Shown here: positions 6,001-9,000 of the stretch, piece by piece
Layout of the letters: every line of letters begins with the position of its first letter
Position numbering within the stretch: position 1 is the stretch's first letter
Virus record (IMG/VR): IMGVR_UViG_2529292908_000015
Span: 1 to 13,916 of that record
DNA length: 13,916 nt
Direction: 5' to 3' (one strand)
From: a virus
Lineage: Duplodnaviria > Heunggongvirae > Uroviricota > Caudoviricetes
Program-made: the position numbers

Positions 6001-9000
6001 CTTGTCGAAAAAGCCAGCAAGCTGAAAGACAGGTATTCACCGCCACCAGCGCGTTTAACGTACTGGTCCGATTTCAGGCATAAAAAACCCGCCTGACGGC
6101 GGATTTAAGCTATGTGGCGAAGTAACCACTCTTAACATGGTATTTATTTTTTTACGATCGTAAAGCATTCTGGAAAAATTTTTAAGACTTACATCATGCT
6201 TTCATAACTTGAGCGCCGTATATAGCCACTGAACGGGAGCTGGTAAATAAGATTCCCCTCAGACACGAACAGCCATCTAAGTATGGAATTGCAAGACCAA
6301 TGAAACTTGATGTTTCTTAAGCAATCTTCAAACAACAAACAGCCTCGTTACAGTTGTCAAGCTATCTTGACGCCATTAGAAACGATGATGAAAATAGACA
6401 CTCCTACACACAGAGGATATATCATGGAAAACTTTGCAAATAAGTTAAAATCTCACGCAGAGCATGTTGCAAACATGGGGTGCTTCTGTAATACAGAGGA
6501 AACAACCAAACAGGCATTAATCATGCCTTTTCTAGATATTTTAGGCTTTACTCCATACGACCCACGAAAAGTGAAGGCAGAGTATAGCGCAGACTTCCCA
6601 GGGGTAAAGATTAACGAACGAGTTGATTACGCTTTATTTTGTCATGATGTTCCCGTGATGTTTATTGAAGCAAAATCATTTTCAGAAAAAATTGACAATC
6701 ATTGCCCACAGCTTTCTAGATATTTCAACTCTACCCCAGAAGTCACCATTTCTGCTATAACAAATGGAATTGAATGGCGTTTTTTTACGGATCTAAAACA
6801 AAAAACATTATGGATTCGTCTCCTTTCTTAAAATTAAGAATGGACTCACTTAACGATTCAGATATTTCACAGTTATTCCGCTTCAGATATGACAAATTTA
6901 AGCCAGAGGCATTAAGGACGCTTGCAGAGGAAAGCGTCTATCTAAACGCATTCACAAAAACCATAAGCTCAAGTCTTAGAGAGGTTGATCCTGAATTTGT
7001 CAGATATGTTGCCAGTCGTTCAAATATCGAGCGTCAACTAAACCAGCGATTCCTTGAATCTGTCACGCCACTGGTCAAACAAGCTGTAAAACGAGCAGTA
7101 AGTGCCATGGTGGTTTCTGGCCTTTCAACACAACCACCTACAGAATCTGCAGAGGATGTGGAAAAGTCTTCTGTAGATACCGATATCGTCAATGAAGATA
7201 ACCCCAATATAATAACCACAAAGAAAGAATTAGAACTTTTCGAAAGAATAAAGCAAATCATTCAAACAGAAGATAATATTGAATACAAAGATACCGAATC
7301 ATACTTTGGAATTCTTTTAGATGGAAAAAGTAATAGATGGATTTTAAGATTTTACGACAAAAAATCATCCTTTATCCTGCTACCGATATCGTTCAACGAA
7401 ATTCAATTAAACGAAATAAAAAGGGCTAGACTGGAAACTGATGGTCGAAAAATCCACATAACAAATCCAGAAGACATACTGCGTATATCTGGATTAATTC
7501 TAGATGCGTTTGAGTATGTAAAAAACGATGACAATTTCAGGAGAGGGACAAAAACAACTCTCTCAGAAAACATCGAATAAATTAGACTATAAACAACACC
7601 CAACTTACATGTCCGGTGTTCCAATCCCGACGCAAATATTTCTAATGTGTGGGAATATAGACCCGGACAATGTATCTAGTCAAGCACCTACATAATTCGT
7701 TCTACATATCTGTCCATCTCCAGCCGGATATCAAGCATCATCAAAATACCATCAATCACCCCTTCGGCTTTCTGAAGACGTTTACCAATGCAGGTGTCAG
7801 AGCATCTATGCTTACGCGCCAGACTCATAAAAGTCATTCCAATGACATAATAATCCACCAATAAATCATGCAAATCACTGTTGTTTTTTTTCAAGCGGGC
7901 CATGCATCCACAAACGATCATCGCGTCATCGTCGCAACATTGCGGACGAGACTTAACTTTTGAAGAGATTAGTCCTTTAAATCCAGCAGCAATCGGTGAC
8001 CAAGTCACATCCTCATGATTGTTTGCAACCCATGCTCCCCAGCGTTCGAGAACCATCTGAATATCACGCATCAACTTTCTCCACAAAATCAGGACAGCAC
8101 ACCAATCGCCAGCGCGCGATCGATAAAACGAAATATCAGCTCCAGTTGGGAACCATACTTCTCTTCAAATGCCACGGTATCCGCATGCAGTCCGTCATGG
8201 TGTTTTCTGCACAAAGGCAACACAAAAAGGTCATGCGCTTTTGTACCCATTCCACCCTGACCATGACCAATCAGGTGATGAGGATCGTCGGCTGGCTTAC
8301 CACAACATGCACACGGCTGCGTCTTAACCCAGCGCGTGTACTTTTCATTAACCCAGCGACGACGTTTTGGGCGTAACATAAAAGACTCCGGCGACTCCGG
8401 ATCCACTTTCAGCGCCAGCACCTTTTTCGCCTTATCCTGGATGATGCTGGTGGCAGTAACCGAAGGCACAAGGTCACTTTCCCGGGTGACAGACGGCACA
8501 ACAGGCTTCGGTAATCTCAGTGCCTTACGGGCTGCACTTTCCGGTAAGGCATCCGCCAGGTCATTACGAATCAGCCACCAGCACAGTTCCGGCATTGTCA
8601 CAACGTGACTGTCATCAAAACCAAGATCACGGCGCACAACAGACAACACCCAGCGGGCACAGTTATCCGTTGCCATTGCTTCCAGCCGTTCCGTGAACTG
8701 GTCACGGAGAAGATTGTCACAGTGCCAGCACAGACGGATTGCACCCGGCGCGTGTCGCATTGTGGTCATGTTCTCGCTGTGCCATCCGGAATGAGGCCAC
8801 TGACAGCCCTTTTCACGAAGTAACCAGCTTTCAAGACATTCCACCCCACCAGTACAACGAATAACTGCCTCATTGCGGAACACGGCCCGAACGGCAGGAT
8901 CATCCGCCAGCGGTTGTGATGCTGCCGGAACGGCACCGCTGGCGAAAGATGAATAACGTTCCGGCTCAGGCTCCAGCAGGACACGCCCCTGCATAAACAG

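What the first reader, a model, noticed from the sequence alone, without database searches (positions are those of the whole stretch)
6103..7687. AT-rich cargo island replaces the late-gene start, directly downstream of Q
The 1.5 kb between the Q stop and the small-gene/methyltransferase block is visibly AT-rich and homopolymer-rich, and its only coding capacity is on the plus strand, opposite to every flanking phage gene. Its position, just after Q and the late promoter, is the classic moron slot of lambdoid phages (where stx sits in Stx phages, and comparable to the trkG cargo position in Rac). Compositionally foreign, opposite-strand cargo in a prophage hotspot is where anti-phage or host-fitness genes are usually found.
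Basis: partly seen in the sequence, partly recalled or inferred. Interest (0 to 1): 0.8.

Follow-up and report, generated by a model that had tools for sequence, protein, structure and literature searches.

The report
Prophage cargo gene: solitary restriction-like nuclease
The AT-rich stretch after the phage Q gene is a rare, horizontally acquired one-gene cassette encoding a stand-alone DNA-cutting enzyme, probably used by the dormant phage to fend off other phages, though in this sequence the gene is broken by a one-base deletion that is likely a sequencing error.

Summary
Window 6103-7687 has 37% GC against 51.5% in the flanks, and it is the lowest-GC stretch of that length in the window. 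Its only coding capacity is on the + strand, opposite the phage genes. The two overlapping + ORFs are one 385-aa gene broken by a 1-nt deletion in an A7 run (6800-6805); restoring one A gives a protein identical to WP_032188582.1.

The protein is a solitary PD-(D/E)xK nuclease. It has an HsdR/type IIG-like nuclease domain, a helical connector and a C-terminal "double-wing" domain. It matches PHROG 4225 full-length and is absent from PADLOC and the PDB.

The island occurs in only 3 of 5,426 complete E. coli genomes. In related phages the same slot is empty or holds a porin or other ORFs. Relatives of the gene sit in other prophage slots, often directly behind the CI-like repressor (the rexAB position).

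- The island lies between Q and the 82/H-19B-type late promoter, not after the promoter.
- It does not replace the late-gene start. A separate deletion fuses the methyltransferase to tail gene J.

A defence role is inferred, not shown.

The parts
7688..8086 (-). Q antiterminator gene (82/H-19B/QuuD type). Its last ~8 codons (7688-7712) are not shared with other Q genes of this type.
   Evidence: PF06530, E 1.2e-53. 85-87% aa identity to Q of phages 434B and H-19B. Nucleotide homology to other loci starts at 7713.
6340..7683 (+). Moron cassette: the homology unit shared at about 80% nt identity with two other prophage loci. It comprises a promoter, the nuclease gene and a 3' region.
   Evidence: blastn: window 6340-7683 matches L021 (downstream of a DUF1133-type Q-like gene). 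Window 6348-7667 matches Salmonella L013.
6367..6395 (+). Candidate sigma-70 promoter of the nuclease gene (TTGACG-17-GAAAAT), followed by the SD GAGGA at 6413-6417.
   Evidence: Consensus scan. The hexamers and the SD are conserved in three cassette copies. Not tested experimentally.
6424..7580 (+). Gene for a 385-aa solitary PD-(D/E)xK endonuclease, read here as two overlapping ORFs (6424-6831 and 6774-7580).
   Evidence: Intact as WP_032188582.1 in L001 and L009. HSDR_N/HSDR_N_2. PHROG 4225, E 4.5e-147. D68, E82 and K84 conserved. AF2 model pLDDT 92.
6800..6805 (+). Frameshift site: A6 here, A7 in all intact copies.
   Evidence: Alignment to L001. Adding one A restores a protein 100% identical to WP_032188582.1. 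All four 1-nt indels against L001 are homopolymer deletions.
7654..7683 (-). Promoter-like element antisense to the nuclease gene (TTGACT-18-TATATT), at the Q-proximal end of the cassette.
   Evidence: Best promoter match in the region, 10 of 12. Both hexamers are invariant in three ~80%-identical cassette copies while the spacer varies. Function unknown.
6188..6300 (+). Decayed left end of an IS66-family element (IRL and 5' UTR up to the tnpA start).
   Evidence: 72-76% identity to IS66-like copies in about 1,900 E. coli genomes, E down to 2e-7. The match lies immediately upstream of tnpA.
6122..6164 (-). 82/H-19B-type late promoter block. The -35 TTTACG (6164-6159) lies within the palindrome TTTACGATCGTAAA. 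The -10-like TACCAT is at 6142-6137. The conserved initial transcribed sequence TAAGAGTGGTTAC is at 6134-6122.
   Evidence: The same block abuts the Q stop in H-19B and lies distal to the cargo in L001, L004, L007, L008 and L009. Calling it pR' is an inference from position and conservation.
6080..6106 (-). Intrinsic terminator (tR'-like) closing the short late leader.
   Evidence: GC-rich hairpin plus U6. Fold energy -22 kcal/mol, z -2.7. Conserved in Stx phages and in all compared loci.
5762..5959 (-). Small conserved first late-region ORF (PHROG 331; annotated as hypothetical or TrmB-like). Backbone, not cargo.
   Evidence: PHROG 331, E 2e-42. Present with the methyltransferase in 2,291 of 5,426 E. 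coli genomes.
4826..5611 (-). Phage N6/N4 DNA methyltransferase, truncated. The deletion junction to the C-terminal 281 codons of tail-tip J is at about 4878-4883.
   Evidence: PF01555, and PADLOC MTase_II covering profile positions 14-245 of 333. Homology to the full-length gene stops at 4878. J homology reaches 4883.

Best explanation
The AT-rich segment is a horizontally acquired single-gene moron. The cassette spans 6340-7683, and a ~110-nt relic of an IS66 end lies beside it. It is lodged between the stop codon of an 82/H-19B-type Q antiterminator gene and that Q's cognate late promoter-terminator block (6164->6080, minus strand), in a defective Stx-phage-like lambdoid prophage.

On the strand opposite all phage genes it encodes a 385-aa stand-alone endonuclease with four parts:
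- an N-terminal PD-(D/E)xK nuclease domain of the HsdR / type IIG-IIL kind, with catalytic D68, E82 and K84;
- a three-helix connector;
- an acidic disordered linker;
- a C-terminal 'double-wing' alpha/beta domain (YdhG/YjbR/MotA-CTD-like) that probably selects the target.

Inferred mode of action. The gene is expressed in the lysogen from its own sigma-70 promoter and cleaves incoming foreign (phage) DNA. It would act as a solitary, methyltransferase-less restriction or superinfection-exclusion nuclease, possibly dependent on DNA modification or structure (type IV-like). During lytic growth, read-through from the early-right operon through Q, and possibly a conserved antisense promoter at the cassette's 3' end, would run against it.

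In this window the frame is broken by a 1-nt deletion in an A7 run, most likely a homopolymer sequencing error.

Shown: the composition, the slot polymorphism, the gene structure, an intact active-site motif under strong purifying selection, and exclusively prophage contexts among close relatives. Inferred: expression, nuclease activity, target, and the defence role.
For: Composition and rarity:
- GC is 0.37 against 0.515, and GC3 is 0.31.
- 3 of 5,426 complete E. coli genomes carry it.

Slot polymorphism between homologous prophages:
- empty, porin, and other ORFs;
- intact island in an Stx2 prophage.

Gene and family:
- One gene, restored by adding one A.
- HSDR_N/HSDR_N_2 and a full-length PHROG 4225 'endonuclease' match.
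- 1,465 close relatives and 3,386 representative clusters.
- E25, K29, D68, Y69 and K84 are invariant and E82 nearly so in 73 diverse members.
- dN/dS is 0.03-0.05, and all 8 compared copies are intact.

Structure:
- Full model pLDDT 92.

Contexts of relatives are all prophage:
- Directly behind the CI-like repressor on the same strand, 9-22 nt gap, in Providencia, Morganella and Citrobacter.
- Behind the repressor of Mu-like Salmonella prophages.
- Downstream of another Q family.
- Inside a myovirus baseplate module.
- Among 75 species-level homologues, the upstream neighbour is an HTH_3+S24 repressor in 17, and no methyltransferase family is recurrent.

Promoter and late block:
- The cassette's own promoter and SD are conserved.
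- The late promoter block lies distal to the cargo.
Against: - No experimental evidence for defence was found. The family has no hit in PADLOC 2.0.0. Nothing turned up in the literature searches or in the DefensePredictor supplements that could be searched.
- How self DNA would be spared is unknown.
- No intrinsic terminator follows the gene.
- Many of the more distant homologues sit next to housekeeping genes.
- The copy in this window is frameshifted and, if that is real, inactive.
Confidence: 0.6

Rival explanations
1. This copy is a true pseudogene. The cassette once encoded the nuclease but has been inactivated by slippage in the A7 run, in a prophage that is decaying anyway. The island would do nothing in this genome.
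For: The frame is broken at 6800-6805. The prophage is grossly defective, with the methyltransferase fused to J and the lysis, head and tail genes deleted. The helicase gene is also split.
Against: Over 7.3 kb at 99.4% identity to L001, all four 1-nt indels are deletions in homopolymers of 6 nt or more. That is the signature of homopolymer under-calling, not random decay. There is no substitution in the 1,651-nt island relative to two other genomes.
Confidence: 0.25
2. The nuclease is a selfish or phage-serving enzyme rather than host defence. It could be a free-standing homing-type endonuclease that spreads its own cassette between phage genomes, or a nuclease used in the lytic cycle for host DNA degradation or recombination.
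For: The same cassette, or close homologues, occurs at several unrelated insertion points in different phage backbones. An IS66-end relic lies beside it. PD-(D/E)xK homing endonucleases exist (established knowledge).
Against: It recurs directly behind the lysogeny repressor on the same strand, with a 9-22 nt gap. In the Q slot it is oriented against lytic transcription. Both point to expression in the lysogen, not in the lytic cycle. There are no flanking repeats or target duplications.
Confidence: 0.12
3. The nuclease is the restriction half of a restriction-modification pair with the neighbouring phage methyltransferase (4826-5611).
For: A nuclease and an N6/N4 methyltransferase lie within 1 kb of each other. 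A Dam-like methyltransferase is adjacent in the Mu-like Salmonella context.
Against: The methyltransferase plus small ORF is backbone in 2,291 genomes, and only 3 of these carry the nuclease. The nuclease occurs without any methyltransferase in the Providencia, Morganella, Citrobacter and baseplate contexts. No methyltransferase family is among the 25 commonest neighbour families.
Confidence: 0.03

Closest known systems
nmpC / lc porin morons downstream of quuD-type Q (DLP12, PA-2, 434B hybrid)
   Same: Same slot and same orientation. One opposite-strand accessory gene lies immediately after a QuuD/82-type Q and before the late promoter block (L007, 434B, block location).
   Different: The cargo here is a cytoplasmic nuclease, not an outer-membrane porin. 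There is no sequence relationship between the cassettes.
stx and other cargo in the Q-lysis interval of Stx phages
   Same: The same prophage lineage and neighbourhood. In strain JNEC-KY177 the island sits in an Stx2 prophage, ordered Q - island - small ORF - MTase - tRNAs - stx2AB.
   Different: stx lies downstream of pR'-tR' and is co-transcribed with the late genes. This cassette lies upstream of pR', on the opposite strand, with its own promoter.
rexAB of phage lambda (lysogen-expressed exclusion genes next to cI)
   Same: Homologues of the nuclease occupy exactly that position: directly after the CI-like repressor, on the same strand, with a 9-22 nt gap.
   Different: There is no sequence or fold relation to RexA or RexB. 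It is a single nuclease rather than a sensor plus membrane effector. In this window the gene is in the Q slot, not the immunity region.
N-terminal nuclease + helical connector of type I HsdR and type IIG/IIL enzymes (EcoR124I, BpuSI, DrdV/MmeI)
   Different: It lacks the SF2 motor of HsdR and the methyltransferase/TRD of type IIG/IIL enzymes. It carries a 'double-wing' C-terminal domain instead, and no hsdM/hsdS genes are nearby.
Prophage-borne type IV (modification-dependent) restriction enzymes such as McrA of e14 and GmrSD of CT596
   Same: A solitary nuclease without a cognate methyltransferase, carried by a prophage. One source labels homologues 'predicted type IV restriction endonuclease'.
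   Different: Different nuclease and reader domains. No known modified-base reader domain was detected, and modification dependence is untested.

Membership tests
Lambdoid-phage moron (Hendrix/Juhala sense) | Present or absent between otherwise homologous phage genomes, at a boundary between conserved genes | tested here: met
   The slot is empty in L005 and holds different cargo in L004, L007 and L008. The island is in 3 of 5,426 genomes.
Lambdoid-phage moron (Hendrix/Juhala sense) | Nucleotide composition distinct from the surrounding phage genes | tested here: met
   GC 0.37 against 0.515. GC3 0.31 against 0.44-0.63.
Lambdoid-phage moron (Hendrix/Juhala sense) | Own promoter and own terminator allowing expression from the repressed prophage | tested here: inconclusive
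   The promoter-like TTGACG-17-GAAAAT and the SD are conserved in 3 copies. No intrinsic terminator was found after the stop. No expression data are available.
Type I restriction enzyme R subunit (HsdR), the RefSeq product name | N-terminal PD-(D/E)xK nuclease domain (HSDR_N) | tested here: met
Type I restriction enzyme R subunit (HsdR), the RefSeq product name | SF2 helicase/translocase motor domains, protein of about 800-1100 aa | tested here: not met
   The protein is 385 aa with no helicase domain in Pfam. The NCBIfam HsdR equivalog scores 17 bits against a cut-off of 729.
Type I restriction enzyme R subunit (HsdR), the RefSeq product name | Adjacent hsdM and hsdS genes | tested here: not met
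   None in the window or in any sampled context.
Type IIG/IIL restriction-modification enzymes (BpuSI, MmeI, DrdV) | Nuclease fused to a gamma-class methyltransferase and a target-recognition domain in one chain | tested here: not met
   Only the nuclease and helical connector align (173-204 residues). No methyltransferase domain is present.
Type IV (modification-dependent) restriction enzymes | Nuclease without a cognate methyltransferase | tested here: met
   No recurrent methyltransferase neighbour. The nearby phage methyltransferase is backbone, independent of the nuclease.
Type IV (modification-dependent) restriction enzymes | Cleavage dependent on modified bases, with a recognisable modified-DNA reader domain | not testable with these tools
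   The C-terminal domain matches YdhG/YjbR/MotA-CTD folds, none of which is an established modified-base reader. A biochemical test is needed.
Known anti-phage defence families (PADLOC-DB 2.0.0) | Significant full-length match to a defence-protein model | tested here: not met
   0 families for the intact protein at E <= 1. In 73 diverse members there are only nuclease-domain-level matches to IIG REase and Cas4 models.
PHROG 4225 ('endonuclease') | Full-length profile match | tested here: met
   E 4.5e-147, residues 1-369 on profile positions 1-357 of 357.

The most novel reading that the evidence does not exclude
The cassette encodes a so far unrecognised single-protein anti-phage system: an HsdR-type nuclease tethered to a double-wing DNA reader. 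It travels between temperate phages and settles in at least three lysogeny-expressed or moron slots (behind the repressor, between Q and pR', and in the baseplate module). It would carry its own convergent antisense promoter as a switch that turns the nuclease off when the prophage enters lytic growth, sparing the phage's own DNA.
Probability: 0.3. Interest if true: 0.65.

Novelty: new variant of a known kind. Interest (0 to 1): 0.45.

Why it matters
Prophage moron slots are a productive source of new anti-phage genes. This analysis defines one such slot precisely: between the stop of an 82-type Q and its late promoter. The slot swaps porins, small ORFs and this nuclease.

The nuclease family is large (more than 3,000 clusters at 50% identity), strongly conserved and structurally well predicted. 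Its closer members are found only in prophages, often in the rexAB position. It is nevertheless absent from defence databases and has no solved structure or described function.

If it is a defence nuclease, it adds a compact single-gene system with an unusual target-reading domain. It occurs inside Stx2 prophages, where it could influence which phages superinfect STEC.

The RefSeq name 'type I restriction endonuclease' is misleading. The protein lacks the motor domains and the partner genes.

Tried and rejected
- tRNA and Rfam scans of the whole window found nothing.
- The repeat search around the island found only short chance pairs and no target-site duplication or terminal inverted repeats.
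- PDB sequence searches with the protein and with a 73-member profile gave no meaningful hit.
- Foldseek against the PDB matched only the nuclease domain.
- I first took the strong promoter match at 7683-7654 for the late promoter pR' and placed the island between pR' and tR'. I dropped this after finding that the 82/H-19B-type block (TTTACGATCGTAAA...TAAGAGTGGTTAC plus terminator) abuts the Q stop in H-19B and lies distal to the cargo in seven loci. The 7683-7654 element also belongs to the cassette, being conserved in non-QuuD contexts.
- I first read the Salmonella L013 context as a nin-region insertion. It shares the cassette-ORF6N module with L021, where the cassette follows a DUF1133 Q-like gene. 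The 174-aa upstream protein in L013 has no Pfam hit, so that context stays unclear.
- An R-M pairing with the adjacent methyltransferase was rejected on distribution.
- Literature searches for the family, its accessions, PHROG 4225, COG4748 and HsdR_N in defence papers gave no functional study. [quoted passage not shown]
- The search for related loci with the 73-member alignment failed for lack of conserved stretches. An 11-member alignment worked.
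Full report
**1. The observation**

The flagged interval is the most AT-rich part of the window. GC is 0.372 for 6103-7687, against 0.516 to its left and 0.514 to its right. The lowest-GC 1585-nt window of the whole sequence starts at 6126. Third-position GC of the + strand reading frames is 0.31, against 0.44-0.63 in eleven flanking phage ORFs. All recognisable flanking genes are on the minus strand:
- DUF968, 8089-9132
- Q antiterminator, 7688-8086 (PF06530, E 1e-53)
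- a small PHROG-331 ORF, 5762-5959
- an N6/N4 DNA methyltransferase, 4826-5611
- the C-terminus of tail-tip protein J, then Lom, a tail fibre and a tail-fibre assembly protein

Within the interval, only the + strand ORFs 6424-6831 and 6774-7580 have homologues. Similarity of the left backbone to thousands of E. coli prophages ends at 6103, 6138 or 6164, and Q homology resumes at 7713.

**2. One gene, broken at a homopolymer**

Three complete E. coli genomes out of 5,426 carry the whole island at 99.6-99.9% identity. In those the two ORFs are one 1,158-nt gene encoding WP_032188582.1, annotated 'type I restriction endonuclease'.

Over 1,651 nt the window differs from strain S1-CAM-02-A only by two single-base deletions, both in A runs. 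One of them (A7 to A6 at 6800-6805) breaks the frame. Adding back one A gives a protein identical to WP_032188582.1.

Over 7.3 kb of 99.4%-identical prophage sequence there are four 1-nt indels. All are deletions in the window, and all lie in homopolymers of 6 nt or more. One of them also splits the replicative helicase gene. This pattern is typical of homopolymer under-calling. I therefore consider a sequencing or assembly artefact more likely than true decay, but I cannot prove it without reads.

**3. Where the island sits**

Related prophages share the same backbone: replication genes, DUF968, Q, then the small ORF, methyltransferase, tRNAs, stx and lysis genes. They differ exactly between Q and the small ORF:
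- The slot is empty in the Stx2a prophage of O145:H28 RM13516. There are 215 nt from the Q stop to the small ORF.
- It holds an opposite-strand porin in ETEC1703 and in the DLP12-derived part of phage 434B.
- It holds an opposite-strand 148-aa ORF in strain A39.
- It holds a same-strand 166-aa ORF in an Stx2e prophage.
- In JNEC-KY177 the island with the intact gene sits in an Stx2 prophage, upstream of the methyltransferase, three tRNAs and stx2AB.

So this is a genuine variable cargo slot, and the island is neither backbone nor common.

**4. Position relative to the late promoter**

I first took the best promoter match (TTGACT-18-TATATT, 7683-7654, minus strand) for pR'. Comparison changed that view. 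The window's Q is 85-87% identical to Q of H-19B and 434B. In H-19B the Q stop codon directly abuts this block:

TTTACGATCGTAAAA-N-TATCAT-GATAAGAGTGGTTAC-N-terminator

The same block has these features in the compared loci:
- a perfect 14-nt palindrome over the -35;
- a -10-like hexamer 16 nt downstream;
- an invariant TAAGAGTGGTTAC;
- a GC hairpin plus U-tract.

It is present in every locus with this Q type, always on the far side of the cargo. These are the window (6164->6080), L001, L009, L004, L007 and L008. The leader folds into the expected terminator hairpin. In L006, a locus with a different, 273-aa antiterminator, a lambda-like promoter (as I recall the lambda pR' sequence) precedes the same terminator. 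This fits the rule that the promoter/qut part co-varies with Q.

I infer that the cargo slot lies between the Q stop and pR'. Late transcription would then not have to cross the island. That H-19B's pR' lies directly after Q is from my recollection of Neely and Friedman (1998). For Q933-type Stx phages, PMC7547250 states that the pR'-initiated StxS transcript is encoded directly downstream of Q and ends at tR'.

The late-gene start is thus intact. What removed the late genes is a separate deletion. Homology to the full-length methyltransferase stops at 4878 and homology to J reaches 4883. That junction occurs in none of the 5,426 genomes.

**5. Anatomy of the island**

The unit shared with other phages is 6340-7683. 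It is about 80% identical to a locus where it follows a DUF1133-type Q-like gene and precedes ORF6N and the holins (L021), and to a Salmonella prophage (L013).

Inside it, a sigma-70-like promoter (TTGACG-17-GAAAAT, 6367-6395) and a GAGGA Shine-Dalgarno are conserved in all three copies.

At the 3' end, on the opposite strand, the hexamers TTGAC and TATATT at 18-nt spacing are invariant in the three copies while the spacer varies. This may be an antisense promoter acting on the nuclease gene, or a leftover from a donor phage. I could not decide which.

Between the cassette and the pR' block, 6188-6300 is a decayed left end of an IS66-family element. No flanking repeats were found.

**6. The protein**

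- *Family assignment.* Pfam finds HSDR_N and HSDR_N_2 in residues 25-128 and nothing in the C-terminal two thirds. PHROG 4225 ('endonuclease') matches full-length at E 4.5e-147.
- *No known relatives of defined function.* PADLOC 2.0.0 has no match. The NCBIfam HsdR model scores 17 bits against a cut-off of 729. No solved structure is related by sequence.
- *Family size.* There are 1,465 close hits and 3,386 clusters at 50% identity with E <= 1e-3.
- *Conservation.* In 73 diverse members E25, K29, D68, Y69 and K84 are invariant and E82 nearly so, giving an intact PD-(D/E)xK site. Among eight intact copies from different prophages, dN/dS is 0.03-0.05 where dS is not saturated.
- *Fold.* The AlphaFold model (pLDDT 92.3) shows a nuclease domain (1-140), a three-helix connector (145-236), a disordered acidic linker (about 237-259) and a compact alpha/beta C-terminal domain.

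The protein is not an HsdR. It has no motor domains and no hsdM/hsdS neighbours. It is not a type IIG enzyme either, because it has no methyltransferase.

**7. Genomic company of the family**

Every sampled context of close relatives (62-90% identity) is a prophage:
- Directly after the CI-like repressor (HTH_3 + Peptidase_S24), on the same strand, with a 9-22 nt gap. This occurs in Providencia, Morganella (three different backbones) and a Citrobacter koseri remnant. It is the position of rexAB in lambda.
- After the repressor of Mu-like Salmonella prophages.
- After Q-type genes, on the opposite strand (this window, L001, L009, L021).
- Inside the baseplate module of a myovirus-like prophage present in about 66 E. 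coli genomes.

I also ran a crude neighbour census of 75 homologues (50-72% identity), one per species, across Gamma- and Betaproteobacteria. An HTH_3/S24 repressor is the upstream neighbour in 17. Phage antirepressor, Bro-N and N-peptide proteins recur downstream. No methyltransferase family appears among the 25 commonest on either side. Many of the more distant homologues have housekeeping neighbours, so the family as a whole is not exclusively phage-borne.

**8. Mechanism (inferred)**

The following features fit a lysogen-expressed nuclease that protects the lysogen against other phages:
- it is a solitary nuclease with an intact active site;
- it is under strong purifying selection;
- it is carried as a self-contained cassette;
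- it repeatedly sits where temperate phages keep lysogeny-expressed exclusion genes;
- it has no modification partner.

Because no methyltransferase accompanies it, self DNA must be spared in one of three ways: by target choice (modified or otherwise phage-specific DNA, type IV-like), by activation on infection, or by tight expression control. In the Q slot the gene faces the early-right operon. Read-through from Q during lytic growth, and possibly the conserved antisense promoter, would oppose its expression just when the prophage's own DNA replicates. None of these steps has been tested. I put 0.6 on the overall statement: about 0.9 on 'moron cassette encoding a solitary nuclease' and about 0.5 on 'defence'.

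**9. Rivals**

- A true pseudogene in this genome (0.25; this concerns only this copy).
- A selfish or lytic-cycle nuclease (0.12). This is weakened by the repressor-linked, lysogeny-type placement.
- An R-M pair with the neighbouring methyltransferase (0.03). This is contradicted by the independent distributions.

**10. Comparison with the known, and novelty**

The slot and orientation are those of the nmpC/lc porin morons. The neighbourhood is that of stx. The likely logic is that of rexAB or of prophage-borne type IV enzymes such as McrA of e14.

The gene family is already annotated (misleadingly) and catalogued as a PHROG. I found no functional study, no defence-database entry and no structure. 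I class it as a new variant of a known kind: a prophage moron carrying a restriction-like nuclease with an unusual domain combination. It is a reasonable candidate for experimental testing but not a surprise in kind. Interest is 0.45.

Noticed in passing
window 6188-6300 (+): A decayed left end of an IS66-family insertion sequence (inverted repeat and 5' UTR up to where tnpA would start). It is 72-76% identical to many E. coli IS66 copies. It lies between the late-promoter block and the nuclease cassette and may mark how the cassette arrived.
   Followed up: partly
window 7654-7683 (-): A strong promoter-like element (TTGACT-18-TATATT) pointing antisense into the 3' end of the nuclease gene. 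Both hexamers are invariant in three ~80%-identical cassette copies from different prophages while the spacer varies. It could be an antisense regulator of the nuclease or a relic of a donor phage's promoter.
   Followed up: partly
window 6151-6164; also L018:2923-2937 and L001, L004, L007, L008, L009: The -35 region of the 82/H-19B-type late promoter block is a perfect 14-nt palindrome (TTTACGATCGTAAA), conserved in seven loci regardless of cargo. It may be a protein-binding site (a Q-binding element?).
   Followed up: no
window 6173, 6799, 9114, 10446: All four single-base differences in length relative to a 99.4%-identical E. coli prophage are deletions in A or T runs of 6 nt or more. The one at 10446 splits the DnaB-type replicative helicase gene into ORFs 9383-10375 and 10441-10782. 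This suggests systematic homopolymer under-calling in the source assembly.
   Followed up: partly
window 4826-4883: The phage DNA methyltransferase gene is truncated after about 245 codons and joined to the last 281 codons of tail-tip gene J. The junction has a ~6-nt overlap of the two homologies. The tRNA/stx slot and the lysis, head and most tail genes are deleted. The junction is absent from all 5,426 complete E. coli genomes searched.
   Followed up: partly
window 2001-2800: A GC peak (0.59-0.69) inside the tail-fibre gene 1735-3300 corresponds to collagen-like Gly-X-Y repeats (Pfam Collagen, 3 stretches). These are followed by a Peptidase_S74 intramolecular chaperone domain.
   Followed up: no
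window 7688-7970: Relative to the otherwise 95-96% identical O145:H28 Stx2a prophage, the mosaic breakpoint on the right lies inside Q at 7971, not at its stop. The C-terminal two thirds of Q therefore travelled with the promoter-specific part of the late region.
   Followed up: partly
L013:3910-4472 and L013:2471-3679: In the Salmonella prophage that carries a 90%-identical nuclease, a HigB/HigA toxin-antitoxin pair and an IS605-family TnpB gene lie within 2 kb. The same stretch of that prophage has accumulated several accessory modules.
   Followed up: no
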